Source: Bacteroidales bacterium (GTDB lineage Bacteria; Bacteroidota; Bacteroidia; Bacteroidales; GCA-2711565). Taken from it: a stretch of 64,000 nucleotides of DNA. The stretch spans positions 64,212-128,211 of the forward strand of contig JANQLW010000022.1 of the NCBI GenBank assembly GCA_028280405.1. Direction: 5' to 3'. Both the position numbers and the translations under genes were made by a program. A model generated the notes under the pieces. It ran no database searches. It saw only the letters and a list, made by a program, of their open reading frames with translations, and had not been told where the DNA came from. Of the stretch, positions 26,096 through 57,958 are shown in pieces (within the stretch, counting starts at the first letter, position 1; every line of letters begins with the position of its first letter).

Positions 26096-26116
26096 TTGTA
26101 TTTAATTTTGGGAAAA

Positions 26117-27740: not shown

Positions 27741-27748
27741 ACATCATT

Positions 27749-31051: not shown

Positions 31052-31286
31052 AATTTTACTTTGTTTTGGTGAATACGATGTATACTTTTATTTAATGTTT
31101 CGCCAGGACTTTTTGGCCGGGTTCTGTCTTCAGCGGAATCCGGTTTTATTTTGTCTGCCGGGGCCACCGGTTGGTGGAGCAGGCAGATCCTGACAATTCC
31201 TGAAAAAGTTCACTTCATCAGGCTATTATTGAATCAAGAGTCAGGTTTTTTTCATACGCTATATAATTGGTTTTACATTGGTAAAT

Positions 31287-32444: not shown

Positions 32445-32658
32445 TGTAAACCTAAAATAAGAATGCCCTTTCTTATATAGAGTCCATCGAAGATCAAAAA
32501 CCCTTAATTGGGGATGAAAAAAATTGGAAATCCATATTTTCGTAGTTATTGAAACCCTGCCAGGGTAACACTCATCATTACATTGCCATATTGAAACATA
32601 ATCCATATATTTGATTTTAAATAAAAAAACTCCATTAATCTTTAATAGCAATTAAGAA

Positions 32659-34023: not shown

Positions 34024-34099
34024 AAATTAGATATTTTTAAACACCCAAACTTGTCTGCCGGATTGATTCTTCATAAATTAAAGGGTTAATTCTGTTAGT

Positions 34100-41932: not shown

Positions 41933-43873
41933 TTACGAATCAATAAAATAAGGAAGGTATAAGTTTACGGCAGTGCCTCCGACACTCTCCGAAAGATCAG
42001 TAATATGGTAAACAGCATTTCTATCAAAGGACTTTGCATAAACTTTTAAACGTTCCTTGAGAATTTTTCCTGAAAGAGACTCATAGGATCTATTTTTGGT
42101 ACGGTTTTCCAAACCTTTATTATAGCCAATTCCATTATCAACAATTAAGCATTCAAGTAATTCGTCCTTTTCATGAAATCTAAACTCCATTTTTATCTCT
42201 GCATTACTTATCCCATTAAAACCGTGATTAATAGAGTTTTCAATGAAGGGCTGAATAAACATTGGAGGGATTAAAATTTCCTGAGGGTCAATCGTTTCAT
42301 CAATTATAATTGAATAAACAAAGCGGTTCGAAAAGTTAGATTGAAGCTCCAGGTAATCATTAAGTGCCTGTATTTCATCTTCCAGAGATATAAACTCTTC
42401 CCGTGAATTTTTCAAAATTAAACGAAGCAAACTGCTAAATTTTAGCACAAAAGGAACTGTTTTTTCAGATTTTGACTTTGCCAATCCACTAATTGAATTC
42501 AATGCATTAAAAATAAAATGTGGGTTTAGCTGTGAACGCAAAAGGCGCTGCTCCAGATTCACCAACCGGTACATATTTTTTAGCTTTCTTTGCCTGAATA
42601 CAAAGATTGTAATTGTAATAAGTAATAGAACCCCAAAACCTAAAATAAAATTAATGGTTTGCCGCTGTTTTAGGATGTAAGCTTGTGATTCATTTTGTTT
42701 TTCCAGTTCTTTAATGGAATTATCTTTTTCTTTTACTTCATAATAGGTTGTATATTCCTGAAACTGTTTAGCTATATTTTTTTCCTGGTATTCATTTAGG
42801 TAATAGATAAAATCATTTTTAACTCGTATTATGTTTTCAATATCATTGAGTTTTTGGTAGATTTTCACAAGATGTTGGCTGATAAGTTCAAACATATCCC
42901 TTTCATTTCTTGAAAAATCTTTGTCAGCATCCAGTTTATTATAAACCATCTGCAATAGTTCAAAAGCATCATCAAGTTTGTTTTCTTGGATTAATAAGTA
43001 TGCTTTACTAATTTGATTGCGGTAAGTTATTGTACCTTCTTTATAGTTCGTATCAAGATTATGATAATCATAATAGTCATTTGCTTTTTTGAAAAGCAGT
43101 TTTGCAGAATCAACACTCATTTCTCTTAAGTGTATATTCCCAATACTGTTTAGTGAATTAACAACATTGGCATGAATTCTATATTTGTAAAAGCTTCTGC
43201 TGTTCTTTGTTGTATCAGTATATGATTGAATTGATTTTCTTAAATAGTATTTGGCAGAATCCAAGTCGTTTTTATAAGAATATAAAATACCAATATTCTG
43301 ATTTAGATTGCCACTTGTATATTGATAGGACATATAGTTTTCAAACGGGAGTAACTTTAGTTTATACTTTAGTGATAAATTATAATCACCTAATCCTAAA
43401 TGAATAATAGAAATACGATGAATTATACTGGTTTCCCAATTGCTTTCTTCTTTCTCCGGATATTTTTTGGCATATTCCAAAGCTTTGTAGAGCGTTTCAA
43501 TGGATTTTAGTTTTTCATCATTAAAGTATTCATGTAAACCAATCATATAATAAGCTTTCGAAATGGCTTTTTGTGCAACATCAAAATCTTTTTCTTCATT
43601 TTCATATATCTCAATAACCTTTCTAGAATAAAATGCTGCTGAATCTCTTTCGAGTACCTTTAAAAATGCAAAGGCTTTAAAGGCATAGTATTTTGACCAT
43701 CCTTTCAATGATTGGTCAGATTCTAACATTTTTCTAATACTGTCAGCCTTTCTGTGTTTAACCCACATATAAGGTATTGTATCAATAGAAAGTTGGGTGA
43801 TTTTTTCATTTTGGGTAAAAATGTCAGGTGAGAAAATCAAACAAAGACAAGCAATCAAATAATATTTTTTCAT
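41933..43873 (-). CDS. Sensor histidine kinase of the LytS/YehU type (His_kinase + HATPase) with an N-terminal TPR-like extracytoplasmic domain
   Basis: 646 aa with a signal peptide, a TPR-like region of about 390 aa and one TM segment (INFILGFGVLLLITITIFVF). These are followed by LRSQLNPHFIFNALNSI and VDNGIGY. Confidence 0.8.
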   Translation of the reverse strand: MKKYYLIACLCLIFSPDIFTQNEKITQLSIDTIPYMWVKHRKADSIRKMLESDQSLKGWSKYYAFKAFAFLKVLERDSAAFYSRKVIEIYENEEKDFDVAQKAISKAYYMIGLHEYFNDEKLKSIETLYKALEYAKKYPEKEESNWETSIIHRISIIHLGLGDYNLSLKYKLKLLPFENYMSYQYTSGNLNQNIGILYSYKNDLDSAKYYLRKSIQSYTDTTKNSRSFYKYRIHANVVNSLNSIGNIHLREMSVDSAKLLFKKANDYYDYHNLDTNYKEGTITYRNQISKAYLLIQENKLDDAFELLQMVYNKLDADKDFSRNERDMFELISQHLVKIYQKLNDIENIIRVKNDFIYYLNEYQEKNIAKQFQEYTTYYEVKEKDNSIKELEKQNESQAYILKQRQTINFILGFGVLLLITITIFVFRQRKLKNMYRLVNLEQRLLRSQLNPHFIFNALNSISGLAKSKSEKTVPFVLKFSSLLRLILKNSREEFISLEDEIQALNDYLELQSNFSNRFVYSIIIDETIDPQEILIPPMFIQPFIENSINHGFNGISNAEIKMEFRFHEKDELLECLIVDNGIGYNKGLENRTKNRSYESLSGKILKERLKVYAKSFDRNAVYHITDLSESVGGTAVNLYLPYFIDS

Positions 43874-43948
43874 AAAAAGTATTTAAACATTAATTATTTT
43901 TGATAATTGTTTCTTAACAAGAAATATTTATCAATCCCCAATTTAACT

Positions 43949-44695
43949 ATGAACAGTCATATTCGAGCTGTAATTATTGAAGACGACATTGAATCACTAA
44001 ATTATTTATCTTCTATAATTGATAAGAGTTTTGATGAACTAAAAATTTGTGGTTACGCTAAAACTGTAAATGAAGGTATAAAGCTAATAAATAATTTCAA
44101 GCCGGAAATTGTATTTATGGATATTGAGCTGGAAGATGGAACTGCTTTTGAAATACTTGATAATATTGAGTCTCCTGACTTTGAAGTCATTTTCACTACA
44201 GCGTATAATGATTATTTTGAAAAGGCACTGGAACATTTTGCATTTTGTTATCTGTTAAAACCTATTGACGATAAAAAGCTTAGAAAAGTAATAGATCGAT
44301 ATACCAATGTTAAAAACCGTTTATTCTCTTTATCAAAATATGCATTGTATCAGGAATTTATTAGAGATAAAGATGCACGACTGCTTATTCATGCCGGAAA
44401 CAATCACATCGCAGTTAATCTTTCCGACATTATTTATTGTGAAGCCGATGGCAATTATACCATTTTCAAGCTTTGTGGTAACAAAAATGTCTTGGCTTCG
44501 AATACATTAAAGTATTATGAAGAACTTTTGAACCACAAGGCCTTTTTCAGGGCAAACAGGTTTACGCTTATTAATGTAAGGCATATTAGTAATATTTTCA
44601 AAAGAGAAACAATTGTTTTGAGTAATAAAAGCAAAATAAATGTATCTGTTAGAAATAAGTCTAAGCTTTCAGAGCTTATTTCTGAGCTTTCATAA
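43949..44695 (+). CDS. LytTR-family response regulator
   Basis: I placed the start at the ATG at 43949 (MNSHIRAVIIEDD). Receiver domain (PEIVFMDIELEDGTAFE) plus a C-terminal LytTR domain (IIYCEADGNYTIFKL...FFRANRFTLINVRHI). The listed TTG start at 43907 is less likely. Confidence 0.85.
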   Translation: MNSHIRAVIIEDDIESLNYLSSIIDKSFDELKICGYAKTVNEGIKLINNFKPEIVFMDIELEDGTAFEILDNIESPDFEVIFTTAYNDYFEKALEHFAFCYLLKPIDDKKLRKVIDRYTNVKNRLFSLSKYALYQEFIRDKDARLLIHAGNNHIAVNLSDIIYCEADGNYTIFKLCGNKNVLASNTLKYYEELLNHKAFFRANRFTLINVRHISNIFKRETIVLSNKSKINVSVRNKSKLSELISELS

Positions 44696-44964: not shown

Positions 44965-45329
44965 ATGGAATACGAAATTAAAGAAAAGCTAAACGAGATT
45001 GCATACCTTTTGAAAAGCAATTATAAAACTATTGAAAACCCGGGATTGGCCGGTGGTAAATCAGGAATAGCCCATATATACAATCGAATGTATTCATATA
45101 CAAAAATTGAAAAGTTCAAGGAGATCTCAGATTTTTGGTACGGGAAAACACTGAAAATGGCAAAATATGAAGATGCTTATACCGAGTTTAAAACTGGTAA
45201 TCAGCCAATAAAGGATTTTGGTTCCCAAATCATAGTTTTCTGGAAGATATTTCCGGAATCGAATTGTCACTAATTACAGCAATTTCAAACGAAGAATCAA
45301 ATTGGGCCAAATGTTTTATGATTAACTAA
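44965..45329 (+). pseudogene. Remnant of a LanC-like cyclase gene (internal deletion plus frameshift)
   Basis: GGKSGIAHIYNRMYSYTKIEKFKEISDFWYGKTL parallels CHGANGIAQIYNRMFHYTGIDTFQTSAKYWYNKAL of the intact LanC. After a frameshift near 45230, another frame reads SFLEDISGIELSLITAISNEESNWAKCFMIN*, which parallels LLEGASGIGLSLISAISDIEPTWDSCLLLS*. Confidence 0.7.
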
Positions 45330-45549
45330 CAAAAAACCTCCTCAATAGAATGATGATTAATAAACACACAAATATTTTGTTAACCACTAAACTAGAAAGG
45401 AGGTATGTCAAAGATATGGATGTGATATAATTTATGCAAACTTAGTAATACGAAAAGTGAGCATAAAATATTTTGGAAAAAAGAGATATTATAAGGAGGT
45501 TGCTGAAAATCCATTGAAAGAGTAAGCTATAATAACAAATAATACAATT

Positions 45550-45735
45550 ATGAAAACTAAAAATTCAAAAAAATTAAAACTTAAAAAAAGAACTATTGCT
45601 AATCTTAACAAAGGAGCTATGAATAATTTGAAAGGTGGTGCACTTTCCGTTGGCTGTGTTTATACCTCAAATACAGGCGGAACGCACCCTCATCCTGGTT
45701 GCGATTTTGACCCTACAAGCAAAGAGTGTGAGTAA
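45550..45735 (+). CDS. Class I lanthipeptide precursor (LanA) with a Bacteroidota GG-type leader
   Basis: 61 aa. The leader MKTKNSKKLKLKKRTIANLNKGAMNNLKGG has hydrophobic residues at -4, -7, -12 and -15 relative to the GG. The core ALSVGCVYTSNTGGTHPHPGCDFDPTSKECE has 3 Cys and 7 Ser/Thr. It lies directly upstream of lanC/lanB. Confidence 0.85.
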   Translation: MKTKNSKKLKLKKRTIANLNKGAMNNLKGGALSVGCVYTSNTGGTHPHPGCDFDPTSKECE

Positions 45736-45761
45736 TAATACTATGATTTAAAGCATTCTCA

Positions 45762-45793
45762 CTCAAAGGCTCAATTAATATTGAGCCTTTGAG
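45762..45793 (+). terminator. Perfect 14-bp hairpin between lanA and lanC (candidate partial terminator or transcript stabiliser)
   Basis: ctcaaaggctcaat-taat-attgagcctttgag. It is followed by caaaaaa rather than a T-run, so it is not a canonical intrinsic terminator. Confidence 0.45.
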
Positions 45794-45811
45794 CAAAAAA
45801 CAATTCGTATT

Positions 45812-47020
45812 ATGAAATGGTCAAAATGTATTGATGATCAAAACAAACATATTTCTTTAAAGATAGATAAGATAGCCTTAGAATTAAATAGTTTAAAAAA
45901 TTTAAACGAAATAGGATTATTTATTGGCTTGAGTGGAATTTCACTGTTTAATTTTTACTACTCACGTTATAAAAACATCTCAAAGTATTCTGAATTAGGG
46001 TATAAATATATTCTAAAAATATTTGAGGCTATAAATGAAAAATCATTTGTCCACTCATTTTCATATGGCTTACCAGGTATAGGATGGTTGATTGAACATC
46101 TTATTGAATATGATTTCATCGAGGAGGAAAATAGGAATGTCCTTGAGGATATTGATAGTTTCATATTTGAGGATATGATGAAAGCACTTCAAACATCAAA
46201 CTATGACTATCTACATGGAGGGTTAGGTAACGCTATGTATTTATTGAATAGAAAAAACACGAATACTGTTAATAACTACCTGCATCAATTAGTTGATACT
46301 CTTCATGAAAAAAGCATTAAAGACACTAATGGTAGTATAAAATGGGTTTCAAAACCAAGTAATAACTCAAGCGAATCTGAATTTACTTATAACATTTCAT
46401 TATCTCATGGAATGTCGAGCCTTTTATTAATACTGTGTAAAATATACCACTTAAAAATAAACAAAAGAATTAGCAAGAAGCTCATAAGAGGCTGTGTTTT
46501 ATATATATTAAGTCAGAAATTTTGTTCAAGAGACTTCAATTCATTTTTCCCTAGCCTTTCTAAAGATAATAGTAAACCAAAACCTAGTAGATTGGCATGG
46601 TGCTATGGTGACCTGGGGATTTGTTTAGCAGTTTTCAAATCAGCTGAAATCTTAGATGATAATTCATTGAAAAAAGAAATAGTCAATTTGTTACAATTAT
46701 CCACACAAAGAAAAAGTCTTAAAAAAAATGGAGTTTATGATGCTGCGTTGTGTCATGGAGCTAATGGTATAGCACAAATATATAACAGAATGTTCCATTA
46801 TACAGGAATTGACACATTTCAAACTTCCGCAAAATATTGGTATAACAAAGCTTTGTCATTACCATATTATACAAAAGTAATTGAAAATAAACATGTTGAA
46901 TATTCAAATTTAACAAGAAAGTATAGTTTGCTTGAAGGAGCATCAGGTATTGGTTTAAGCCTTATTTCTGCCATATCAGACATAGAGCCTACATGGGATA
47001 GTTGTTTATTACTTAGCTAA
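45812..47020 (+). CDS. lanC: LanC-like lanthionine cyclase
   Basis: 402 aa. Repeated GxxG motifs of the alpha-toroid are present (GLSGISLF, GLPGIGW, GGLGNAMY, GMSSLL, GDLGI, GANGIA, GASGIGL). Zn-ligand contexts are WCYGDLG and LCHGANG. Confidence 0.9.
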   Translation: MKWSKCIDDQNKHISLKIDKIALELNSLKNLNEIGLFIGLSGISLFNFYYSRYKNISKYSELGYKYILKIFEAINEKSFVHSFSYGLPGIGWLIEHLIEYDFIEEENRNVLEDIDSFIFEDMMKALQTSNYDYLHGGLGNAMYLLNRKNTNTVNNYLHQLVDTLHEKSIKDTNGSIKWVSKPSNNSSESEFTYNISLSHGMSSLLLILCKIYHLKINKRISKKLIRGCVLYILSQKFCSRDFNSFFPSLSKDNSKPKPSRLAWCYGDLGICLAVFKSAEILDDNSLKKEIVNLLQLSTQRKSLKKNGVYDAALCHGANGIAQIYNRMFHYTGIDTFQTSAKYWYNKALSLPYYTKVIENKHVEYSNLTRKYSLLEGASGIGLSLISAISDIEPTWDSCLLLS

Positions 47021-47029
47021 ATAATTAAT

Positions 47030-49255
47030 ATGAATTCTGATAATAGATATAAATTCTTCAATAAATTTATTCTACGGACACCATTATTCCCATATAGTAC
47101 ATTAGATGCCATTATTTCAAAAAGGAATATTAGAGAAGAAGACTTAAAACAGATATGTTCAAACCCTTCATTTCAGGAAGCCATATTTCTGGCATCACCC
47201 GAGTTGTCAGCAGAAGTTAGTAAATGGCTAAATAAAGAACTTAGTGGCAAATCACAGAAAGCTATTGAAAAATTGCACTTTGCCGTTTTAAAATACTTGA
47301 TAAGGATGTCCACAAGATGTACTCCCTTTGGATTATTTGCAGGATTCTCTGTTGGACACTATGGCAGTGAAAACAATATCAAAACACCTGACCGATCAAC
47401 TTTTAAAAGACATACGCGCCTTGACATGAATTATCTATGTTCTTTAATTCAAGATATTTCACAAATTCCTGAGCTTAGAGAAACAACAAAATATTACCCC
47501 AACAATAGTATTTATTCTGTCGGAAATCAATTGCGGTATATAGAATACCATTATGAATATTCCCGGCGATTCCATCAAATTGTAGCAGTTGATTACTCAG
47601 AATACTTAAAAAAAATCCTCAGGAAATCATCGAACGGCGCATACATTGATGACTTAGCAACAGTACTCGTAAATGATGAGATTGAGTTCGAAGAAGCTAA
47701 AGAATTTGTAAATGAACTTATAGACGGGCAATTATTGGTCAATGAATTCGAACCCTCCATCACAGGAAAAGAATTCCTGGATCAGATATTGCAGATTTTA
47801 GAAAATATCAACAGCTCCAGCAAACTCAAAGAAGTCCTGATTCAAATTAAAAAAAAACTAGATGAAATTGATAGCAATGCAATTGGAACGACCTTATCAA
47901 AATATCACGAAATCGCGAATAATCTGAATTCTTTAGAAACAAAATACGATATCAAATTTCTGTTTCAAACAGATATGATAATCCCCTCACAAAATTTTAC
48001 ACTTAGCAAAGATATTCCAGTTCAAGTATTACAAGGCATTGAAGCATTAAACAAATTAACGCTACCACCTCCAACAACCTATCTTAAGCAGTTTAAAGAA
48101 GCTTTTTACGAGCGCTATGAAGATAGGGAAATGCCACTATTACACGTTTTAGATACGGAAGTAGGAATTGGATATATGCAAAATAATAATTCTGGAGATG
48201 TTTCTCTTTTGGCAGACAATATTTTTCTACCCAATTTAACAAGAAACCATACTTCTATAAATTGGACCGATATACATTCCTTCCTATTAAAAAAGATTAC
48301 TCAAGCTATTTCACAAAGTAAGCTTTCAATTGAAATTAAGGAAGATGAGTTGAAATCATTCAATTCCAATTGGGATGATATGCCTGATACTTTTTCAACT
48401 ATGGTGAATATTTTCGAAAATGGGAAAATATATATGAAAGAAGCCGGAGGTTCAAGCTCTACTAATCTATTGGGACGATTTTGTCACGCAGATGGAGAGT
48501 TATATAACTATGTCAAAGAGATTAAAGCTAAGGAAGAAGAACTAAATCCGGATAAAATCCTGGCTGAAATTGTGCATCTTCCGGAATCAAGAGTTGGGAA
48601 TATTCTTTTGCGGCCAGTATTAGGTGAATATGAAATTCCTTACCTGGCAAAATCATCAGTAAAAAAAGAAAATCGAATAGAGTTACAGGACCTGATGATT
48701 TCCGTGAAAAGAAATAGAGTTGTGTTACGATCCAAAAAATTAAACAAAGAAATTATTCCACGCCTGAGTACAGCTCACAATTACACTTCAAACGCCTTAC
48801 CGGTTTATCAATTTCTTTGCGATATGCAAAACCAGGAAATTAGAAGTGTTGTAGGATTTAATTGGCGAAGGTTTGAAATCGAATATCCCTTTCTACCAAG
48901 AATTGAATACAAAAATTTAATTCTATCACTGGCAACTTGGAATATCAAAAAAGAAGACATTGATGATATTCTTAATGCAAATTCTGATGACGAATTATAC
49001 AAGCAAATGGAAAATTTTAAACTTGAAAGGAAGTTACCTGATCTGGTCACTCTGGTTGATGGAGATAATAAACTACTGATTAATCTAAAAAATTTACTTT
49101 GCATTAAAACCCTTATAGCAACTATAAAAAATCGTAAAAATTTTATACTCACTGAATTTCTTTTCAATGCAAAAGATGGAATTGCAAAAGGGCCTGAAGG
49201 TATATTTACAAACCAATTTATAATCTCTTTTTACAAAACAACTAAACAGAACTGA
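47030..49255 (+). CDS. lanB: Lanthipeptide dehydratase, N-terminal glutamylation part of a split LanB
   Basis: 741 aa. N-terminus FILRTPLFPYS and overall size are typical of the Lant_dehydr_N family. Starts 9 nt after lanC. Confidence 0.85.
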   Translation: MNSDNRYKFFNKFILRTPLFPYSTLDAIISKRNIREEDLKQICSNPSFQEAIFLASPELSAEVSKWLNKELSGKSQKAIEKLHFAVLKYLIRMSTRCTPFGLFAGFSVGHYGSENNIKTPDRSTFKRHTRLDMNYLCSLIQDISQIPELRETTKYYPNNSIYSVGNQLRYIEYHYEYSRRFHQIVAVDYSEYLKKILRKSSNGAYIDDLATVLVNDEIEFEEAKEFVNELIDGQLLVNEFEPSITGKEFLDQILQILENINSSSKLKEVLIQIKKKLDEIDSNAIGTTLSKYHEIANNLNSLETKYDIKFLFQTDMIIPSQNFTLSKDIPVQVLQGIEALNKLTLPPPTTYLKQFKEAFYERYEDREMPLLHVLDTEVGIGYMQNNNSGDVSLLADNIFLPNLTRNHTSINWTDIHSFLLKKITQAISQSKLSIEIKEDELKSFNSNWDDMPDTFSTMVNIFENGKIYMKEAGGSSSTNLLGRFCHADGELYNYVKEIKAKEEELNPDKILAEIVHLPESRVGNILLRPVLGEYEIPYLAKSSVKKENRIELQDLMISVKRNRVVLRSKKLNKEIIPRLSTAHNYTSNALPVYQFLCDMQNQEIRSVVGFNWRRFEIEYPFLPRIEYKNLILSLATWNIKKEDIDDILNANSDDELYKQMENFKLERKLPDLVTLVDGDNKLLINLKNLLCIKTLIATIKNRKNFILTEFLFNAKDGIAKGPEGIFTNQFIISFYKTTKQN

Positions 49256-49260
49256 AGTGT

Positions 49261-50169
49261 ATGGTTACCAATAAACGCACATTTATACCGGGAAACGAAT
49301 GGCTCTATTATAAAATTTATACCGGAGTTAAAACAGCTGATATGATTCTCACAGAGATAATCAAGCCTGTAACAGAGCATCTATTAGCCGATAAACTGAT
49401 AAATCAGTGGTTCTTTATTAGATATGCCGATCCTCATTCACACCTAAGACTTAGGTTTCATATTTCGGATCCTGGCAAGCTTGGAGACATCATACACTAT
49501 TTCAACCATTTCATAAAACCATTGATAGACCAGAATATCATCTGGAAAATTCAAACCGACACTTATCAAAGAGAAATTGAAAGATATGGTTTAAGCACCA
49601 TTCATCTTGCTGAAGAATTGTTTTACCATGACAGTACACTAATTACAAACACACTCGATTTAATTGAAGGGGTTGAAGGCGAGAAAATACGATGGTTGTT
49701 TAGCCTTCGAATGATGGACGAATTACTGGATGGTTTTAACTATAGCCTGGAAGAAAAAATGAAGCTACTGAACCATCTGGCTATGGGATTCGGAAAGGAA
49801 TTTGGCATTAACTCAGGTTTAATAAAACAGTTAAGTAATAAATACCGCAACGAAAAAAAAGAAATATCCACGGTACTAAATAGAAACCTGGACAAAGACA
49901 ACGAGATGCTTCCGCTTTTCGAATTGCTAAATACCAAAAGCGAATTGTCACAAAAAGCAATTGCCGGGATATTGAATGCAAAAACCAAAAATGAGTTAAA
50001 TATTCCGTTGGACAACTTGCTTGGAAGCCTCATACATATGATGTTGAATCGTTTGTTCAGATCAAAGCAAAGATTACATGAAATGGTTTTATACGGATTT
50101 CTGTTCAGGTATTACAAATCTGAAATAGCAAAACTTAAATATCAAAAGAAGCAATTCGTTCCGGTATAA
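49261..50169 (+). CDS. SpaB_C / thiopeptide-type bacteriocin biosynthesis domain protein (glutamate-elimination part of a split LanB)
   Basis: 302 aa. The signature EWLYYKIYTG...WFFIRYADPHSHLRLRFH is typical of this family. Starts 5 nt after the previous gene. Confidence 0.85.
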   Translation: MVTNKRTFIPGNEWLYYKIYTGVKTADMILTEIIKPVTEHLLADKLINQWFFIRYADPHSHLRLRFHISDPGKLGDIIHYFNHFIKPLIDQNIIWKIQTDTYQREIERYGLSTIHLAEELFYHDSTLITNTLDLIEGVEGEKIRWLFSLRMMDELLDGFNYSLEEKMKLLNHLAMGFGKEFGINSGLIKQLSNKYRNEKKEISTVLNRNLDKDNEMLPLFELLNTKSELSQKAIAGILNAKTKNELNIPLDNLLGSLIHMMLNRLFRSKQRLHEMVLYGFLFRYYKSEIAKLKYQKKQFVPV

Positions 50170-50188
50170 TCAGAAGTAAAGAGTTAAG

Positions 50189-52393
50189 ATGAAAAAAAGA
50201 TTTCCTGCATATAAACAACTGGATGCCATGGATTGTGGTCCTTCATGTTTGAAGATCATAGCCCAATACTATGGGAAATTTTTCTCGCTTCAAAGCTTGA
50301 GAGAAAAATGCAGCATTAACAGAGAAGGAGTTTCTTTACTTGGCATCAGTGATGCTGCCGAATTGATTGGTTTTCGCACGGTGGGATCCAGAATTGATTT
50401 TGAAAAATTAAAAGATGAAGTTCCCTTGCCTTGTATTGCACACTGGAATCAACGGCACTTTGTTGTGATATACGATATTAAGTCCAAAAAAGGTGAAGAC
50501 ATGATTTGCATATCCGATCCGGCACATGGAAAAGTAAAATATAGCAAAAAAGAGTTTTTAAAGGCTTGGGCAAGTACTGTAAATAACAACAAAGAAGAGG
50601 GGGTGGTTTTAATGCTGGAACCAACACCGGATTTCTTTAAACAAGAAGACGAACAACTTAATAAAAAAAGTTTCAGGTTTCTGTTTTCTTACCTGAAACC
50701 TCATAAAAGATATTTGTTTCAACTTGTGCTGGGGTTGATATTGGGAAGCTTGCTCCAACTTATCTTCCCGTTTCTAACACAATCTATTGTTGATATCGGT
50801 ATTAATAATCAAGATTTAGGATTTATAACCCTGATATTAATTGCCCAACTTGTTTTATTTATTAGCCAAACCAGTGTCGAATTTATCAGAAGCTGGATTT
50901 TACTACACATCAGTACCCGCATCAATGTTTCACTTATATCCGATTTCTTAATAAAACTAATGAAGCTGCCCATTGGTTTTTTTGATCAAAAAATGATTGG
51001 CGACCTCATGCAAAGAATCAGTGATCACACACGTATTGAATCATTTTTAACCGGATCATCACTTCAGATATTATTTGCCTTTGTGAACCTGATCATCTTT
51101 GCCATTGTATTGGGTATTTATAGTCTGAAAATATTGCTAATTTTTCTTATTGGTTCAGCTTTGTATGCTGCTTGGGTGTCTGTTTTTATGAAAAAAAGAC
51201 GGGAAATTGATTACAAAAGATTTTCTCAAATGGCCGATAATCAAAGTAATCTGATACAATTGATCAATGGGATACAAGAAATCAAGCTTAACAATTGTGA
51301 AAAGCAAAAAAGATGGGACTGGGAACGCATACAGGCAAAGTTGTTTCGCGTAAATATAGGGGGGCTTGCCTTGAATCAATATCAACAAGCCGGTGGAGCA
51401 TTTTTTAATCAAACCAAAAATATTCTGATCACTTTCATAGCGGCCCAGTCTGTTGTAAAAGGTGATATCACATTGGGGATGATGCTTGCCATACAGTATA
51501 TCATCGGACAATTAAATGCTCCGATTGAACAGATGATAAACTTTGTCCGTTCGGCACAGGATGCAAAAATAAGTTTAGAGCGTTTAGGGGAAATTCATTT
51601 GAAAGATGAGGAGGAAAATCCCAATGAAAGCAAACTATCAGAACTTCCAATCAAAAAAGACATCACCATTAGCAATCTCTTTTTTCAATATGACGGGCCA
51701 AATTCAGAATTTGTGTTAAACAGCCTGAATTTACTCATTCCTGAAAACAAAATTACCGCTATTGTTGGCAGCAGCGGAAGCGGTAAAACAACACTTTTGA
51801 AGCTCTTACTGGGGTTTTATCCTCCTGTAAAGGGAGATATTAAAATCGATAAAATTCAAATAGCAAATATTACCGGAAAAGTTTGGCGGTCAAGTATTGG
51901 GGCAGTTATGCAGGATGGCTATATTTTTTCGGATACCATTGCACAAAATATCGCTATCAGCGACGAACATATTGATAAAAATAAGCTGCTTAATGCTGTT
52001 GAAGTTGCAAACATCAGAGAATATATTGAATCCCTTCCCTTAGGCTTTAATACAAAAATTGGCCAAGAGGGTATAGGCTTAAGCCAGGGTCAAAAACAAC
52101 GAATTCTCATTGCTCGTGCAGTATATAAAAATCCGGATATTATTTTCTTTGATGAAGCCACAAATGCCCTTGATGCCAATAATGAAAAAATCATCATGCA
52201 AAACCTGAATGAATTCTTTAAAGGGAAAACAGTAGTGGTGGTTGCACACCGTTTAAGTACTGTCAAAAACGCCGATCAGATTGTAGTTCTCGAAAAAGGA
52301 AAAATCATTGAAAAAGGAAATCATAAAGAATTGAGCACACAAAAAGGAGCATACTTTGAGTTAGTAAAAAACCAATTAGAATTAGGAAATTAA
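50189..52393 (+). CDS. lanT: Bacteriocin/lanthipeptide ABC exporter with an N-terminal C39 double-glycine peptidase domain (LanT type)
   Basis: 734 aa. C39 catalytic context (QLDAMDCGPSCL, IAHWNQRHFVV, ISDPA), six-helix TMD, Walker A (GSSGSGKTT), ABC signature (LSQGQKQR), Walker B (IIFFDEAT). Confidence 0.9.
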   Translation: MKKRFPAYKQLDAMDCGPSCLKIIAQYYGKFFSLQSLREKCSINREGVSLLGISDAAELIGFRTVGSRIDFEKLKDEVPLPCIAHWNQRHFVVIYDIKSKKGEDMICISDPAHGKVKYSKKEFLKAWASTVNNNKEEGVVLMLEPTPDFFKQEDEQLNKKSFRFLFSYLKPHKRYLFQLVLGLILGSLLQLIFPFLTQSIVDIGINNQDLGFITLILIAQLVLFISQTSVEFIRSWILLHISTRINVSLISDFLIKLMKLPIGFFDQKMIGDLMQRISDHTRIESFLTGSSLQILFAFVNLIIFAIVLGIYSLKILLIFLIGSALYAAWVSVFMKKRREIDYKRFSQMADNQSNLIQLINGIQEIKLNNCEKQKRWDWERIQAKLFRVNIGGLALNQYQQAGGAFFNQTKNILITFIAAQSVVKGDITLGMMLAIQYIIGQLNAPIEQMINFVRSAQDAKISLERLGEIHLKDEEENPNESKLSELPIKKDITISNLFFQYDGPNSEFVLNSLNLLIPENKITAIVGSSGSGKTTLLKLLLGFYPPVKGDIKIDKIQIANITGKVWRSSIGAVMQDGYIFSDTIAQNIAISDEHIDKNKLLNAVEVANIREYIESLPLGFNTKIGQEGIGLSQGQKQRILIARAVYKNPDIIFFDEATNALDANNEKIIMQNLNEFFKGKTVVVVAHRLSTVKNADQIVVLEKGKIIEKGNHKELSTQKGAYFELVKNQLELGN

Positions 52394-52398
52394 TCACT

Positions 52399-53703
52399 AT
52401 GCCTTTAAACCAATTTGAAATACGGACTGAAGAAATCAATGAGATACTAGGAAAAACTCCCAACAGGATTATTCGTTGGGGAATTAGTGTATTCTTCATT
52501 GTTATTCTTCTTCTACTGGTTAGCAGTTATTTTTTTAAGTATCCTGATTTTATTACTTCTACTATTGAAATAACAACAACGATCCCACCATCTGAAATCA
52601 AAGCTACAAGCGGTGGAAAGATTGAGAAATTATTTGTAGATGATATGCAATTGGTAAGTAAAGGGGAATATTTAGCGTTGATTGAAAACACAGCTAATTA
52701 TGATCACGTAAAAAAACTAATCTCTTTTGTGAATTCAATCTCAGATAGTAATCCTATCAAAAATTTTGATGCTATAAGATCTTTTTTGCAATCGGCTGAT
52801 ATGATACTTGGCGATTTGCAACCATACCTGGCAAACTTTAAATACAATTTCAAAGAATACGAAAATTACCTGACTCTTTCATATCATGTAAAAAGAATTG
52901 TTGCGATTAAAAAACAAATAGCGGATCGAAAGAACTATAAAACCTTATCTGAAAAACAATTGAAAAGCTTAACGCTTGAATTTGATTTAACCCAAAAAGA
53001 GCTTAATCGATTTAAAGGATTGTATGAGGAAAAAATTGTTGCCGAAAGCGAATACGAAAAAATTGAAGCCAACTACTACAAAAAAAAATACAGTTTAGAA
53101 GGGTTTACCGCAAGACTGGCTGAAATCGATAGCGAAATTATGCGTTTACAAAATGACATTACTGACCTAGAACTTCAAAATCAAATTCAGCAAAATCAAC
53201 TCGAAAATAAATTACAGAAATCATTCAATGAGCTTCAAAATCAAATAAAATCCTGGGAACTGAAATATGTGTTGAAATCCCCAATAAAAGGGAAATGCTC
53301 ATTCACAAAGATTTGGAACGTTAATCAAAACGTAAAAACAGGAAAAACCGTATTAACAATCGTACCCTCTAACGATCAGCAAATAATTGGTAAACTTTTA
53401 TTACCGGTTCAAGGGTCGGGCAAGGTAAAAAAAGGACAAAAACTAAATATAAAGCTTTTCAATTATCCATTCATGGAATATGGTATGCTGTTAGGCAGAA
53501 TTGAAAACATATCGCTAGTACCTGAAGAAAATTACTACTCCGTAGAGGTTGCTCTTATAAATGGCTTAACTACCAATTACAAAAAAGAATTGAACTTCCA
53601 TCAAAAGATGCAAGGAACGGCGGAAATTATAACAGAAGAAAGAAGACTGATTGAACGGGTAATATCACCCCTTAAATCCTTAATCAAGAATAAATCCTAC
53701 TAA
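52399..53703 (+). CDS. HlyD-family membrane fusion / secretion adaptor protein
   Basis: 434 aa with an N-terminal TM segment, a long coiled-coil central region and a beta-barrel C-terminus. Starts 5 nt after the ABC exporter. Confidence 0.8.
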   Translation: MPLNQFEIRTEEINEILGKTPNRIIRWGISVFFIVILLLLVSSYFFKYPDFITSTIEITTTIPPSEIKATSGGKIEKLFVDDMQLVSKGEYLALIENTANYDHVKKLISFVNSISDSNPIKNFDAIRSFLQSADMILGDLQPYLANFKYNFKEYENYLTLSYHVKRIVAIKKQIADRKNYKTLSEKQLKSLTLEFDLTQKELNRFKGLYEEKIVAESEYEKIEANYYKKKYSLEGFTARLAEIDSEIMRLQNDITDLELQNQIQQNQLENKLQKSFNELQNQIKSWELKYVLKSPIKGKCSFTKIWNVNQNVKTGKTVLTIVPSNDQQIIGKLLLPVQGSGKVKKGQKLNIKLFNYPFMEYGMLLGRIENISLVPEENYYSVEVALINGLTTNYKKELNFHQKMQGTAEIITEERRLIERVISPLKSLIKNKSY

Positions 53704-53724
53704 AATTCAATTTCCAAAATAGAA

Positions 53725-56700
53725 TTAAATGACAATGTTCACAATTTTATTCGAAACCACAATTACCTTGCGTGGAGTTTTTCCTGCAATCCATTTTTGA
53801 GCTTCTTCTGCTTCAAGAACTGCCTTTTCTATGTCATCTTTAGACATATCCACAGGAAGATCAATTTTAAACCTCATTTTCCCATTAAACGAAACAGGAT
53901 ACGAATAATCATTTTCTTTTACATATTCCTCTTTAAATTCAGGGAATTTTGCATAAGTAATGGATTCCTGATTTCCCAGGATTGACCATAATTCTTCTGC
54001 AATATGAGGAGCATAGGAAGAAATCAAAATACAAAAGTCAGATAATACAGAACGCTTATTACACTTTAAATCCTTAAGCTCATTTACACAGATCATAAAG
54101 CTACTCACCGCCGTATTGAATGAGAATCGCTCAATATCATCTTTTACTTTCTTAATCGTTTTATGAAGTGCTTTTAATTCTTCTTTTGTAGGTTCTGCAT
54201 CCGATAAGGCAATATTTCCTTCATCATCAAAATACAACTTCCAAAGTTTCTTAATGAAGCGAAATACACCTTCAATCCCTTTCGTATCCCATGGTTTATG
54301 ATTTTCCAAAGGCCCAAGGAACATCTCATATAAACGCAAGGTATCGGCACCATATTTTTCAATTAAAGCATCCGGATTTTGTATATTGTGTTTCGATTTT
54401 GACATTTTTTCGATTTCATACCCACAACGGTACTTACCATCTTCCAATATAAATTCAGCATCATTGAACTCAGGACGCCAGCTTACAAAGCTTTCAAGGT
54501 TCAGAATATCATTTTCAACTAGATCAATATCCACATGTAATGGTGTTGAAAATAATTTTCTATCTTTTACACCTTTAGACACAAAGATTGGCTTCAAAGG
54601 ACGAATTTCGTGATGATTGAAAATTACTCCTTTATCAGTATTCTCCACCGCTTTTTTAGTTGCTTCCATGATTTCCTCATCCATATCAATAATATCTGCA
54701 ATAGGAAGCAATAATAATTTTTTATCTGTCGATTTTATATATTCTTCATAATAAGATTCCAGTTTTTCCAGTTTAGGCTGACTCTTAATTTCAATGATCA
54801 GATTTACTTCTTCATTGTAGAAATCAAACTTACGATGTCCGTCACGATAATCTCTTATCCATTTCTTTTCATCACCTATTTGTTTGATGTATTCCCATAA
54901 TAAATATTCAGCATACTTTTCATGATTCACACGATATACAAAACTGGAACGCCCCTGGATTTTACCCTGATTAATCAGCTTTTTAAAGGGTTCGTCTTCA
55001 CATGCAATTCCAATATCAAATAAGAATTTATTCCAGAAACGAGAGTAAATCAAGTGGCCTGCAGCATGTTCATCGCCTCCTATATAAAGATCTACATCTT
55101 TCCAATATTCATTGGTTTCTTTTGAAAAATACTCATTATCATTATGAGGATCCATATATCTTAGATAATAAGCACTTGATCCGGCAAAACCAGGCATTGT
55201 ATTCGTTTCCAGAGGGTATCCTTCTTCAGTAGTCCAGTTTTTAGCACGGGCCAATGGCGGTTCTCCGGTTTCAGTAGGCAAATACTTATCAACTTCCGGT
55301 AGCAAAAGAGGAAGCTTATCTTCACTCAACATATATGGAACTCCATCTTTATAATAAACAGGGAATGGTTCTCCCCAATATCTCTGACGACTAAATATAG
55401 CATCACGTAAACGATAATTAATGGTGCCATAACCAATCCCCTGTTCTTCAATTTTAGCAATGGTAGCTCTAATTGCATCTTTCACTTCCATTCCATTAAG
55501 GAAACCGGAATTCATCATTTTACCTTCCTTTGCATCATATGATTCTTCAGAAATATCCCCACCCGAAACAACCTGAATAATTGGTAATCCAAAATGTTTG
55601 GCAAAAGCATAATCCCTGCTATCATGTGCAGGTACAGCCATAATTGCTCCGGATCCATATCCTGCTAATACATAATCAGCCACCCAAATTGGAATTTCCT
55701 TTCCATTCAACGGATTAATACCATAAGCCCCGGTAAAAATTCCACTAATATTTTTTACTTCAGATTGTCTCTCTCTTTCCGAACGGTTTTTGGCCCACTC
55801 AAGGTATTTTTTAACTTCAGCTTTTTGTTCAGGAGTAGTTATCTTCTCAACAATATCAAGTTCAGGTGCAATAACCATATAAGTAGACCCAAACATAGTA
55901 TCTGGCCGAGTAGTAAAAATTTCCAGCTTTTCATCATGGTCCTTAATATTGAAATAGCAGGTAGCACCTTCTGAACGGCCAATCCAGTTTCTTTGTACTT
56001 CTTTTAATGAATCAGACCAATCTATGGTATTTAACCCATCTAATAATCGCTGTGCATAAGCTGTAATTCGAAGCGACCATTGCTTCATTAATTTACGTTC
56101 AACCGGATGCCCTCCTCTTTCAGACAATCCGTCTTTAACTTCATCATTAGCTAAAACAGTTCCTAACTCAGGGCACCAGTTTACCATGGTATCAGAAAGA
56201 TAAGCCAGGCGATAGTTCATTAACAATTCCTGTTGTTCCTTTTCATTTTTAGCTTTCCATTCATCTGCTGTAAATGGCTCATGTTGGTCACAAGCAGCAT
56301 TTATCCTTGCATTACCATTCTTTTCAAACTCAACTGTTAAAAGGTCTATAGATTCAGCCTTTTGAGTATCATTATTATACCATGAATTGAACAATTGAAT
56401 AAAAGTCCATTGGGTCCATTTATAATACTTAGGATCACAGGTTCTTACTTCACGGTCCCAATCAAATGAAAAACCAATTCTATCCAATTGTTCGCGATAA
56501 CGATCAATATTTTTAAAAGTTGTTACTTCAGGATGGGTTCCGGTTTGAATTGCATATTGTTCAGCAGGTAATCCATAAGCATCATACCCCATTGGGTGCA
56601 ACACATTGTATCCACGCTGACGCATATATCTGGCATAAATATCTGAAGCAATATATCCCAGCGGATGACCAACATGCAAGCCTGCTCCCGAAGGGTAAGG

Positions 56701-56817
56701 AAACATATCCAGCACATAAAATTTAGGTTTATTGTGATCAATTTCCGCTTTGAAAGTTTTTTTCTCGCTCCAATACTTTTGCCATTTAGGCTCAATTTCT
56801 AAAAAATTGTAATCCAT
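53725..56817 (-). CDS. leuS: Leucine--tRNA ligase (1030 aa, unusually long)
   Basis: HIGH motif (HVGHPLG), editing-domain block (TTRPDTMFG), KMSKS at residues 804-808 and a typical C-terminal domain. It carries an extra segment of about 125 aa before KMSKS. Confidence 0.95.
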
Positions 56818-57079: not shown

Positions 57080-57958
57080 ATGTCACGTAAAGAAGATAAA
57101 TACAATAAACGCCGATTAAGATCATCCTATTTGACCACTATGGTAAGCATAACTTTAGTGCTTTTGATGCTGGGAGTGCTGGGGCTCATCATACTTCATG
57201 CCCAGAAATTGTCTGATCATGTAAAAGAAAATATAGCGGTCAGAATAATGATGAAAGAAGATGCCCGGGAAGCAGAGATCATACAATTGCAAAAAGTACT
57301 GGATGCGAGTGCATATGTAAAATCTACAGAATATATTACTCAGGAAATGGCAGCTAAAGAAATGAAGGAAGGTCTGGGAGAAGATTTTGTTAGTTTTTTA
57401 GGATACAATCCCCTTCCACCTTCTATCGATCTTCATTTGAAAGCTGATTATGCCAATATCAAAAGCATCGAAAGTATCGAAAAAGAATTATTGGCTAATC
57501 CGGGCGTTAAAGAAATCTTCTATCAGAAACCTTTGGTACAGGCAATCAATAAAAACCTCAGAAGGATTAGCTTGGTGCTATTGGGATTTAGTGGTCTATT
57601 ATTGATTATTGCTGTCGCACTTATAAACAATACAATACGTCTTTCTGTTTATTCCAAACGGTTTTTAATCCGAAGCATGCAATTAGTTGGAGCAACCCGT
57701 GGTTTTATTCGGAGGCCATTTATTTATAAAGGGATTTTTCAGGGTATATACAGTGCTTTTCTAGCTATTTTAATACTAGTAGGTATCATCTATGTATCAG
57801 TGAAAGAGCTACCTGAATTATTAGAACTACAAGATATAAACTTATTTATCATACTCTTTAGTTCTATTATATTATGCGGCATTCTTATATCATGGCTGTC
57901 TACTTTTTTTGCAATTCACAAGTATTTAAGGATGCGTACTGATGACTTATATTTTTAA
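57080..57958 (+). CDS. ftsX: Cell division protein FtsX (permease-like)
   Basis: 292 aa with an N-terminal TM segment, a periplasmic domain and three C-terminal TM segments. Characteristic block IRLSVYSKRFLIRSMQLVGATRGFIRRPF. Confidence 0.85.
   Translation: MSRKEDKYNKRRLRSSYLTTMVSITLVLLMLGVLGLIILHAQKLSDHVKENIAVRIMMKEDAREAEIIQLQKVLDASAYVKSTEYITQEMAAKEMKEGLGEDFVSFLGYNPLPPSIDLHLKADYANIKSIESIEKELLANPGVKEIFYQKPLVQAINKNLRRISLVLLGFSGLLLIIAVALINNTIRLSVYSKRFLIRSMQLVGATRGFIRRPFIYKGIFQGIYSAFLAILILVGIIYVSVKELPELLELQDINLFIILFSSIILCGILISWLSTFFAIHKYLRMRTDDLYF

What the first reader, a model, noticed from the sequence alone, without database searches (positions are those of the whole stretch)
44965..53703. 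Complete Bacteroidota-type class I lanthipeptide gene cluster with a split LanB and an unrecognised product
Six + strand genes are packed with 5-19 nt gaps after lanC: lanA (61 aa), lanC (402 aa), lanB N-terminal glutamylation part (741 aa), a separate SpaB_C elimination part (302 aa), a C39-peptidase ABC exporter (734 aa) and HlyD (434 aa). Split LanB, a GG leader and a C39 exporter in place of LanP are the architecture described for Bacteroidota class I lanthipeptides such as the pinensin-type clusters. Very few products from this phylum have been characterised. I see no LanP protease, no LanI/LanFEG immunity genes and no tailoring enzymes, so self-protection, if the product is antimicrobial, is unexplained. 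I do not recognise the core peptide.
Basis: partly seen in the sequence, partly recalled or inferred. Interest (0 to 1): 0.8.

Follow-up and report, generated by a model that had tools for sequence, protein, structure and literature searches.

The report
Orphan Bacteroidota class I lanthipeptide cluster
This is an intact but ordinary-looking gene cluster of a type common in Bacteroidota that should make and export a small ring-containing peptide (a lanthipeptide); only the sequence of the peptide itself has no known relative.

Summary
Window 45550-53703 (+) carries six tightly packed genes. They are lanA (61 aa), lanC, a split lanB (741-aa glutamylation part and 302-aa elimination part), a C39-peptidase ABC exporter and an HlyD adaptor. 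All are confirmed by profile searches, and the catalytic residues I could check are present. The leader has the Bacteroidota LxLxKx5L motif, ends in GG and passes NCBIfam NF038153.

The 31-aa core (7 Ser/Thr, 3 Cys, 2 His, net charge about -3) has no relative. In searches covering about 15 billion predicted proteins, only leader-level matches appeared. This is expected for the family. At least 574 species genomes encode a related LanB, and about 113 precursor candidates found near 80 of them have hypervariable cores.

- Its start coordinate (44965) is an internally deleted, frameshifted lanC remnant, not part of the working operon.
- A perfect 14-bp hairpin separates lanA from lanC, and hairpins after lanA recur across the family.
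- The elimination subunit is the canonical NisB (anti) type, not the SapT syn type.
- The neighbouring LytTR two-component system is not conserved next to lan genes.

No LanP, LanFEG/LanI or tailoring gene occurs in the 64 kb. Verdict: a real new member of a known kind, of modest interest.

The parts
44965..45330 (+). Degenerate lanC remnant. A LanC N-terminal stretch (about residues 13-45) is fused to C-terminal residues about 308-353. A frameshift follows, then residues 371-401. The zinc ligands Cys-His are replaced by Ala-Gly. It is not a functional cyclase.
   Evidence: Pfam LANC_like 7e-5, below the family cutoff. tblastn with the intact LanC gives two collinear segments in different frames, 41% and 52% identical, joint E 6e-14. 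Sequence read.
45550..45735 (+). lanA precursor gene, 61 aa. The leader is M1-G30 (MKTKNSKKLKLKKRTIANLNKGAMNNLKGG) with the LxLxKx5L motif and a GG cleavage site. The core is ALSVGCVYTSNTGGTHPHPGCDFDPTSKECE.
   Evidence: NF038153 lant_leader_L1a 8e-7, 29.1 bits against a cutoff of 22, and TIGR04149. Precomputed PF28317 Lant_leader_dom. Motif as described in PMC7268733. Core composition and masses.
45762..45793 (+). Perfect 14-bp stem with a 4-nt loop between lanA and lanC, with no U-tract after it. It is probably a leaky terminator or transcript-stabilising element that sets the precursor-to-enzyme ratio.
   Evidence: MFE -24.5 kcal/mol, z = -6.1, and 0 of 200 shuffles fold as well. Of 112 candidate lanA genes in related loci, 54% have z < -3 in the 80 nt downstream, against 1.3% at random positions. 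The function is inferred.
45812..47020 (+). lanC, the zinc-dependent lanthionine cyclase (402 aa).
   Evidence: LANC_like 5e-46 over the full profile. SHG, WCYG and CHG align with the NisC and 8byk catalytic His and Cys/Cys-His zinc ligands. The best NCBIfam hit is the LanM C-terminal domain.
47030..49255 (+). lanB N-part, the glutamyl-tRNA-dependent Ser/Thr glutamylation subunit (741 aa).
   Evidence: Lant_dehydr_N 7e-152 over profile positions 2-649 of 649. The RMSTRCTPFGLFAG motif is invariant in 24 homologs and aligns to 9g04 and MibB. More than 2800 homologs were found, the nearest 62% identical.
49261..50169 (+). lanB C-part, the glutamate-elimination (lyase) subunit (302 aa), of the canonical anti-elimination type.
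   Evidence: Lant_dehydr_C 3e-73 and TIGR03891 4e-72. HLRLRF aligns with NisB R784/R786 and YQRE-IERYG with E823/R826. The His of SLIHMMLNR aligns with the equivalent His of MibB and 9g04.
50189..52393 (+). C39-peptidase ABC exporter (734 aa). It cleaves the leader after GG and exports the peptide across the inner membrane.
   Evidence: Peptidase_C39 1e-32, ABC_membrane 1e-32, ABC_tran 1e-29 and TIGR01193/TIGR03796. Read directly from the translation: Q10, DCG (Cys16), RHFVV (His90), SDP (Asp110), Walker A GSSGSGKTT, signature LSQGQ, Walker B IIFFDE.
52399..53703 (+). HlyD-family periplasmic adaptor (434 aa) that partners the ABC exporter.
   Evidence: HlyD_3 3e-8 and TIGR01843 type_I_hlyD 3e-35. 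It co-occurs with the C39-ABC in most of the related loci that carry one.

Best explanation
This is a functional class I lanthipeptide operon of the Bacteroidota 'L1a-leader / split-LanB' type. I propose the following pathway.

1. lanA is transcribed, probably in excess, because a strong hairpin separates it from the enzyme genes (inferred).
2. The 741-aa LanB subunit recognises the LxLxKx5L leader and uses Glu-tRNA(Glu) to glutamylate some of the seven core Ser/Thr residues. This follows from established LanB biochemistry and the conserved motifs shown here.
3. The separate 302-aa lyase subunit removes glutamate by anti-elimination to give Dha and (Z)-Dhb. The active-site residues are shown; the stereochemistry is inferred.
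4. The zinc-dependent LanC adds the three Cys thiols to dehydro residues. The most likely result is three non-overlapping rings: Ser3-Cys6, Thr15-Cys21 (enclosing His-Pro-His-Pro-Gly) and Thr26 or Ser27 to Cys30. Up to four dehydro residues would remain. This topology is inferred only.
5. The C39-ABC exporter cleaves after Gly30. Together with HlyD and an outer-membrane channel encoded elsewhere, it secretes the 31-residue anionic product. The expected mass is 3208.35 Da minus n x 18.01, down to 3082.28 Da for seven dehydrations.

The peptide's activity is unknown. It lacks the nisin-type lipid II motif and is acidic, so a classical cationic pore-forming lantibiotic is unlikely. That would also explain why no immunity genes are needed.
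For: - All five protein families were found with very strong E-values and full-length profile coverage.
- Catalytic and ligand residues are conserved in LanC, the LanB N-part, the LanB C-part and the C39/ABC motifs (translation).
- The leader passes NF038153 and carries the published LxLxKx5L...GG motif.
- The genes are packed with 5-19 nt gaps.
- The lanC-lanBN-lanBC order recurs across the 80 related loci. About 32 of them carry a C39-ABC at least 50% identical within 8 kb, and 16 of those lie directly downstream as here.
- About 113 LanA-like precursors with Cys- and Ser/Thr-rich cores lie next to these enzymes.
- Hairpins after lanA are a family-wide feature.
- Split LanB systems have been shown to make lanthipeptides (pinensin, SapT).
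Against: - There is no expression or chemistry evidence.
- Only one other copy of the locus exists in the databases, a 100% identical 3.3-kb contig. Purifying selection on lanA therefore cannot be measured.
- A decayed lanC lies immediately upstream, which shows that gene loss has occurred at this locus.
- No dedicated regulator or outer-membrane component could be assigned.
- The ring pattern is a guess, because Bacteroidota lanthipeptides are reported to have unusual ring patterns (title of Bothwell et al. 2021, cited).
Confidence: 0.85

Rival explanations
1. The cluster is a cryptic or decaying relic. The genes look intact, but the locus is being lost and no product is made.
For: An internally deleted, frameshifted lanC paralog lies directly upstream. 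There is a single lanA, whereas many relatives have 2-5. No cluster-specific regulator was found. Lanthipeptide operons in Gram-negative bacteria are reported to be mostly cryptic under laboratory conditions (abstract of PMC11270710).
Against: All six ORFs are full length and their catalytic residues are intact. The gene spacing is operon-like. The remnant is only 41-52% identical to the intact lanC, so it is an old loss of a different paralog, not ongoing decay of this operon.
Confidence: 0.08
2. The product is a metal-binding (zincophore-like) or signalling lanthipeptide, not an antimicrobial. A His-Pro-His-Pro loop held in a methyllanthionine ring, with flanking Asp/Glu, would chelate Zn(II) or Cu(II). 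This refines the best explanation's end function and does not replace its biosynthesis.
For: The core has 2 His, 2 Asp and 2 Glu, and a net charge of about -3. Pinensins, the prototype split-LanB Bacteroidota lanthipeptides, bind Zn(II) with nanomolar Kd, probably through two His (PMC13532221). No immunity genes are present. One distant precursor (L032 12068-12259) has a loosely similar GHTHDPHEC stretch.
Against: This rests on composition only. Two His residues in 31 is not unusual. No metal-uptake genes (TonB receptor, ABC importer) are attached to the cluster. The similarity to L032 is weak and could be chance.
Confidence: 0.12
3. The split LanB belongs to a non-lanthipeptide RiPP pathway (thiopeptide or pyritide type, or a PEARL-like small LanB) and LanC is incidental.
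For: The 302-aa protein's NCBIfam name is 'thiopeptide-type bacteriocin biosynthesis protein' (TIGR03891). Split LanBs are typical of thiopeptides.
Against: No YcaO/cyclodehydratase, dehydrogenase or [4+2] cyclase gene is present in the window. lanC lies directly between lanA and lanB with 76- and 9-nt gaps. The core has 3 Cys and no Ser-rich thiopeptide-like C-terminus. The glutamylation subunit is full size (741 aa) and is paired with a lyase, unlike PEARLs.
Confidence: 0.02

Closest known systems
Pinensin cluster of Chitinophaga pinensis (pinA, pinB1/pinB2 split LanB, pinC, pinT; MIBiG BGC0001392)
   Same: It is from the same phylum and is also a class I system with the dehydratase split into glutamylation and elimination proteins, a LanC, a transporter instead of LanP, and no LanFEG/LanI. 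Walker et al. report that LanCs of this group look LanM-like. Here too the best NCBIfam hit of LanC is the LanM C-terminal domain.
   Different: The core has no detectable relative, and it is 31 aa whereas pinensin A has 22. The pinensin cluster carries extra genes proposed for perception/import and export (Cpin5321-5324, 5330-5332), and these have no counterpart here. I could not obtain the PinA/B/C sequences for a direct comparison.
Uncharacterised lanA(x3)-lanC-lanBN-lanBC locus in MAG GCA_942491975.1 (L002)
   Same: It has the nearest enzymes found: LanB N-part 62%, LanB C-part 54% and LanC 41% identical. Its leaders are very similar (MKTKK-SLNKKTIA[NS]LND-AM-SVKGG).
   Different: It has three precursors with unrelated cores and a PDDEXK gene inserted in the cluster. 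No C39-ABC/HlyD lies next to it.
lanC-lanBN-lanBC-C39ABC-HlyD operons of Labilibaculum filiforme (L009) and several Bacteroidales and Aminicenantes MAGs (L012, L044, L050, L076)
   Same: They have the same five-gene order and orientation downstream of lanA. The exporter is 66-71% identical, HlyD 39-42% and LanB 42-51%.
   Different: The cores are unrelated and the organisms are from a different class or phylum. None has been characterised.
SapT system (SptBa/SptBb/SptC) of Streptomyces
   Same: It is a class I lanthipeptide made by a split LanB plus LanC.
   Different: SptBb lacks the catalytic His and an Arg and performs syn-elimination. The window's lyase keeps the NisB-type Arg/Arg/Glu/Arg/His set. 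The leader type and the export system also differ.
Nisin system (NisABTCIPRKFEG)
   Same: The chemistry is the same: tRNA-dependent dehydration and zinc-dependent cyclisation. A stem-loop follows the structural gene (the latter from general knowledge of nis operons).
   Different: NisB is a single polypeptide. The nisin leader has FNLD and is removed by the subtilisin NisP. Dedicated immunity (NisI, NisFEG) and NisRK regulation are present. Nisin is cationic and has a lipid II-binding motif, which is absent here.

Membership tests
Class I lanthipeptide biosynthetic gene cluster | LanB glutamylation domain (Lant_dehydr_N) | tested here: met
   PF04738 E 7e-152, full-length. The conserved R-x3-R-x-T-P-F-G motif is present.
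Class I lanthipeptide biosynthetic gene cluster | Glutamate-elimination domain (Lant_dehydr_C / SpaB_C) with catalytic Arg and His residues | tested here: met
   PF14028 E 3e-73. Equivalents of NisB R784/R786/E823/R826 are aligned, and the C-terminal His is conserved against MibB and 9g04. The equivalence of this His with NisB His961 comes from my own knowledge and was not aligned directly.
Class I lanthipeptide biosynthetic gene cluster | Stand-alone LanC cyclase with Cys-Cys-His zinc ligands and catalytic His | tested here: met
   PF05147 E 5e-46. SHG, WCYG and CHG align to NisC and 8byk.
Class I lanthipeptide biosynthetic gene cluster | Adjacent precursor with a leader and a Ser/Thr- and Cys-containing core | tested here: met
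   lanA lies 76 nt upstream of lanC. The core has 7 Ser/Thr and 3 Cys.
Class I lanthipeptide biosynthetic gene cluster | The product actually contains (methyl)lanthionine | not testable with these tools
   This needs heterologous expression and mass spectrometry or thiol alkylation.
Bacteroidota L1a-leader / pinensin-type subgroup | Leader with LxLxKx5L instead of FxLD, ending in Gly-Gly | tested here: met
   L9-K-L11-K-K13-RTIAN-L19 ... G29-G30. NF038153 scores 29.1 bits against a cutoff of 22. The motif definition is from PMC7268733.
Bacteroidota L1a-leader / pinensin-type subgroup | LanB split into two polypeptides | tested here: met
   The ORFs are separate, with a stop codon and a 5-nt gap. 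The same split is seen in nearly all of the 80 related loci.
Bacteroidota L1a-leader / pinensin-type subgroup | C39-peptidase ABC transporter in place of LanP | tested here: met
   Peptidase_C39 1e-32 with Cys, His and Asp present. No S8 protease is present in the 64 kb.
Pinensin peptide family (core homology) | Core peptide similar to pinensin A/B | tested here: inconclusive
   Exhaustive searches returned only leader-level matches, which argues against any known core relative. The PinA sequence itself was not available for a direct alignment.
syn-eliminating split LanB (SptBb / CoiSA-ED type) | Lyase lacks the catalytic His and the alpha-proton-acidifying Arg and has a conserved Lys instead (PMC9011353) | tested here: not met
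   The window's lyase retains the Arg of ERYG and the C-terminal His. It is therefore predicted to be an anti-type lyase giving (Z)-Dhb.
Thiopeptide / pyritide pathway | YcaO cyclodehydratase, dehydrogenase and [4+2] cyclase next to the split LanB | tested here: not met
   None of these families is present among all ORFs of at least 120 aa in the window.
Lantibiotic self-immunity (LanI / LanFEG) | Immunity lipoprotein or ABC-2 type transporter in the cluster | tested here: not met
   No such genes are in the window. The only FtsX-family gene (57080-57958) has the FtsX_ECD cell-division architecture.

The most novel reading that the evidence does not exclude
The product is a new kind of anionic, metal-chelating lanthipeptide. 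A His-Pro-His-Pro-Gly loop is locked inside a methyllanthionine ring (Thr15-Cys21) and is flanked by Asp22 and Asp24. It would act as a secreted zinc or copper scavenger or withholding agent, not as a membrane or lipid II antibiotic. That would explain the lack of immunity genes. It would also extend the recent finding that pinensins are nanomolar Zn(II) binders to a second, unrelated Bacteroidota scaffold.
Probability: 0.1. Interest if true: 0.55.

Novelty: new member of a known kind. Interest (0 to 1): 0.3.

Why it matters
Only a handful of Bacteroidota lanthipeptides have been characterised: the pinensins and Ped15.1/15.2. Class I LanC genes are nevertheless over-represented in the phylum. 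An intact, compact six-gene operon with a single orphan precursor is therefore a convenient target for heterologous expression. The acidic, His-containing core could test whether metal binding, as recently shown for the pinensins, is a wider theme among these peptides.

For genome annotation, the case is a clean example of the L1a-leader, split-LanB, C39-exporter architecture. It raises no new mechanistic question on present evidence.

Tried and rejected
1. The neighbouring TPR-histidine kinase and LytTR regulator pair (41933-44695) as the cluster's regulator. Similar pairs lie within 8 kb of lanB in 6 of about 80 loci (L017, L030, L049, L055, L068; L079 has the regulator only). That is roughly what I would expect by chance, taking from general knowledge that this regulator family is abundant in Flavobacteriia. 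The three closest kinase homologs (54%, 42% and 39% identical) are not next to lan genes. I rejected the pair as a demonstrable part of the cluster.

2. A search for relatives of the core peptide. The word-indexed search found only the peptide itself. The exhaustive HMMER search found five further hits; three are leader-only matches and two are spurious matches in larger proteins. A regex mining of 80 related loci found no similar core.

3. Identifying the source organism. The exact-sequence look-ups gave no names. The first genome-contig scan found nothing, so the genome is not among the GTDB species representatives. I can only say it is Bacteroidota, probably Flavobacteriaceae. The evidence is the SusC/SusD pairs and the ECF sigma/FecR modules, LeuRS 61% identical to that of Tenacibaculum, and kinase homologs found mostly in Aquimarina.

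4. Sigma-70 promoter and intrinsic-terminator scans gave background counts. They are not suited to Bacteroidota, and no TAnnTTTG motif lies upstream of lanA.

5. The Rfam scan of the window gave no hits.

6. The mersacidin-type TxTxEC lipid II motif. The core has only a partial match, PTSKEC, which is too short to mean anything.

7. The Bothwell et al. 2021 paper (PMC9845027) on Pedobacter ring patterns is not held in the library.

Full report
**1. Observation**

The ORF listing shows the six + strand genes exactly as described:
- lanA, 45550-45735 (61 aa)
- lanC, 45812-47020 (402 aa)
- a 741-aa ORF, 47030-49255
- a 302-aa ORF, 49261-50169
- a 734-aa ORF, 50189-52393
- a 434-aa ORF, 52399-53703

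The intergenic gaps are 76, 9, 5, 19 and 5 nt. Pfam and NCBIfam confirm every assignment:
- LANC_like, 5e-46
- Lant_dehydr_N, 7e-152, covering the whole profile
- Lant_dehydr_C, 3e-73, and TIGR03891, 4e-72
- Peptidase_C39, ABC_membrane and ABC_tran, each about 1e-30
- HlyD_3, and TIGR01843 at 3e-35

The 61-aa peptide passes NCBIfam NF038153, 'class I lanthipeptide leader L1a' (29.1 bits against a cutoff of 22). The protein collection also records PF28317 Lant_leader_dom for it.

**2. What lies at 44965-45330**

The 102-aa ORF hits LANC_like weakly. A tblastn with the intact LanC shows a remnant made of three pieces:
- A LanC N-terminal stretch (about residues 13-45) runs straight into C-terminal residues 308-353, 41% identical.
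- A frameshift follows.
- Residues 371-401 then continue, 52% identical.

About 260 residues of the barrel are missing. The Cys-His zinc ligands of the CHG motif read Ala-Gly. This is an old, decayed lanC paralog, not part of the working operon. It shows that this locus has lost lan genes in the past.

**3. Integrity of the enzymes**

- LanC keeps SHG, WCYG and CHG. These align with the catalytic His and zinc ligands of NisC and of structure 8byk.
- The glutamylation subunit keeps the R-x3-R-x-T-P-F-G-L-F-A-G motif. It is invariant in 24 homologs and aligns with 9g04 and MibB.
- The elimination subunit aligns HLRLRF with NisB R784/R786 and YQRE/IERYG with E823/R826. Its SLIHMMLNR His matches the corresponding His of MibB and 9g04.
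- The exporter shows Q10, DCG (Cys16), RHFVV (His90) and SDP (Asp110) of an active C39 peptidase. It also has intact Walker A, signature and Walker B motifs (translation; the motif definitions are from general knowledge).

Van der Donk and colleagues showed that syn-eliminating split lyases such as SptBb lack that His and an Arg (PMC9011353). The window's lyase is therefore predicted to be a canonical anti-lyase giving (Z)-Dhb.

**4. The precursor**

The leader, MKTKNSKKLKLKKRTIANLNKGAMNNLKGG, contains L-x-L-x-K-x5-L and ends in GG. Walker et al. (PMC7268733) reported this combination for Bacteroidota class I precursors that have C39 proteases in their clusters.

The core is ALSVGCVYTSNTGGTHPHPGCDFDPTSKECE. 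Its properties are:
- 7 Ser/Thr, 3 Cys and 2 His
- pI 4.9 and net charge about -3
- monoisotopic mass 3208.354 Da, or 3082.28 Da after seven dehydrations

Dehydro residues normally lie N-terminal to their Cys partner. The simplest topology is therefore Ser3-Cys6, Thr15-Cys21 and Thr26 or Ser27 to Cys30. This is inference only. The nisin-type lipid II motif is absent.

**5. Is the core known?**

No. The word-indexed search of 5.8 billion cluster representatives returned only the peptide itself. The exhaustive HMMER search of 1.84 billion representatives returned five further hits. Three match the leader only and two are spurious matches inside larger proteins.

**6. How common is the system?**

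The LanB N-part has more than 2800 homologs at E <= 1e-20. The nearest are 62% identical. At least 574 GTDB species genomes encode a relative. Most are Flavobacteriaceae (Kordia, Aquimarina, Sinomicrobium, Ulvibacterium) and Bacteroidales. Some MAGs are labelled Aminicenantes, Acidobacteria or other phyla.

In the 80 fetched loci, lanC-lanBN-lanBC is almost universal. About 32 loci carry a C39-ABC at least 50% identical within 8 kb, and 16 of those lie directly downstream as here. Mining these loci gave about 113 plausible LanA-like precursors (126 regex hits before filtering). Their leaders are conserved and their cores are hypervariable and unrelated.

The nearest relative, in MAG GCA_942491975.1, has three different precursors and no adjacent exporter. 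An orphan core is therefore the norm for this family, not an anomaly. The window's enzymes are rather divergent: LanC is at most 41% identical and LanB at most 62% identical to anything else. This fits an under-sampled lineage.

**7. Regulatory features**

A perfect 14-bp hairpin (45762-45793) sits between lanA and lanC. Its MFE is -24.5 kcal/mol, with z = -6.1. It has no U-tract.

Across related loci, 54% of 112 candidate lanA genes have z < -3 in the 80 nt downstream. At random positions the figure is 1.3% (Mann-Whitney p = 4e-21). The control positions are mostly coding, so part of the contrast simply reflects gene ends. By analogy with other lantibiotic operons, I read the hairpin as a leaky terminator or stabiliser that raises the precursor-to-enzyme ratio. 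This is inferred.

The divergent TPR-histidine kinase and LytTR regulator pair just upstream looked like a candidate regulator. Similar pairs lie near lan genes in six loci. However, the three closest kinase homologs are not next to lan genes. Linkage is therefore not supported.

**8. What is missing**

Pfam scans of all ORFs of at least 120 aa in the 64 kb found no subtilisin LanP, no LanI/LanFEG, and no methyltransferase, decarboxylase, reductase or YcaO. No TolC-like outer-membrane factor follows HlyD. The next gene is a convergent leuS. The exit channel must therefore be encoded elsewhere (inference). The flanks are housekeeping genes (leuS, ftsX, uppP, truB, queA, ispD) and Bacteroidota-typical SusC/SusD, ECF sigma and FecR modules. 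G+C content is unremarkable.

**9. Mechanism and rivals**

The best explanation (0.85) is a working class I pathway:
- leader-guided glutamylation by the 741-aa subunit
- anti-elimination by the 302-aa subunit
- zinc-dependent cyclisation by LanC to up to three thioether rings
- GG cleavage and export by the C39-ABC/HlyD pair

The rivals are:
- a cryptic or decaying locus (0.08)
- a non-lanthipeptide RiPP (0.02)
- a refinement of the end function: a metal-binding, non-antibiotic peptide (0.12)

The metal-binding idea is prompted by three things. The core is acidic and contains His-Pro-His. Pinensins bind Zn(II) at nanomolar Kd through two His (PMC13532221). Immunity genes are absent.

**10. 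Verdict**

The cluster is real and apparently intact, and its product is uncharacterised. Its architecture is a textbook instance of a very abundant Bacteroidota type, and orphan cores are the rule in that type. I rate it a new member of a known kind, with interest about 0.3. It is useful as a compact expression target but not surprising to a specialist.

Noticed in passing
window 54586-54924 (- strand; LeuRS residues about 632-744): The 1030-aa LeuRS carries an insertion of about 113 aa relative to the Tenacibaculum aiptasiae LeuRS; the tblastn match breaks at residues 631/745. No Pfam domain covers the insert. It contains a 'FDFY...NLIIEIKS' stretch that looks loosely like a PD-(D/E)xK motif, which I did not verify.
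   Followed up: partly
L057 8001-15021 (Tenacibaculum aiptasiae) compared with window 45812-56817: In T. aiptasiae, a lanC-lanBN-lanBC trio also lies next to leuS, but in the opposite relative orientation. This could be a recurrent insertion neighbourhood or a coincidence.
   Followed up: no
window 35869-41778 (-): This is a very large (1969 aa) bacterial alpha-2-macroglobulin-like protein with MG2, A2M bait-region, A2M and bMG10 domains. It lies just upstream of the two-component system.
   Followed up: no
window 14953-23286 and 24770-32651: Two paralogous modules, each of ECF-sigma/FecR plus SusC-like (STN-CarboxypepD_reg-Plug) plus SusD-like plus an AhpC/TSA thioredoxin-like protein. For the second module, the ECF sigma lies a few kb away at 35191-35760. 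The second module has a higher G+C content, 0.39-0.43 against about 0.33.
   Followed up: no
window 32659-35142: A Schlafen/AlbA_2 - HATPase_c_4 - Fic-like_C protein sits next to a YhcG PDDEXK nuclease (DUF1016). This may be a small defence or mobile-element-related islet.
   Followed up: no
window 7310-8984 (-): A radical SAM protein (with Radical_SAM_C) overlaps a DUF6873 gene. The pair lies 36 kb from the lan cluster and does not appear to be connected to it.
   Followed up: no
window 9073-13749 (+): Three consecutive ORFs (210, 191 and 280 aa) have no Pfam match. They are followed by an 871-aa leucine-rich-repeat protein.
   Followed up: no
L032 12068-12259 (Flavobacteriaceae bacterium M23B6Z8): The core of this precursor...YGHTHDPHECPSQGPTQCNGC, loosely resembles the window's ...GGTHPHPGCDFDPTSKEC: a Thr-His / Pro-His stretch before a Cys, then a short ring. 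It is the only hint of a related core and could be chance.
   Followed up: no
L068 6563-14527 (Allomuricauda MAG): Here a LytTR regulator and TPR-kinase pair is embedded inside the lan cluster, between lanBC and three lanA genes. Some clusters of this family may therefore be under such control, even though linkage is not general.
   Followed up: partly
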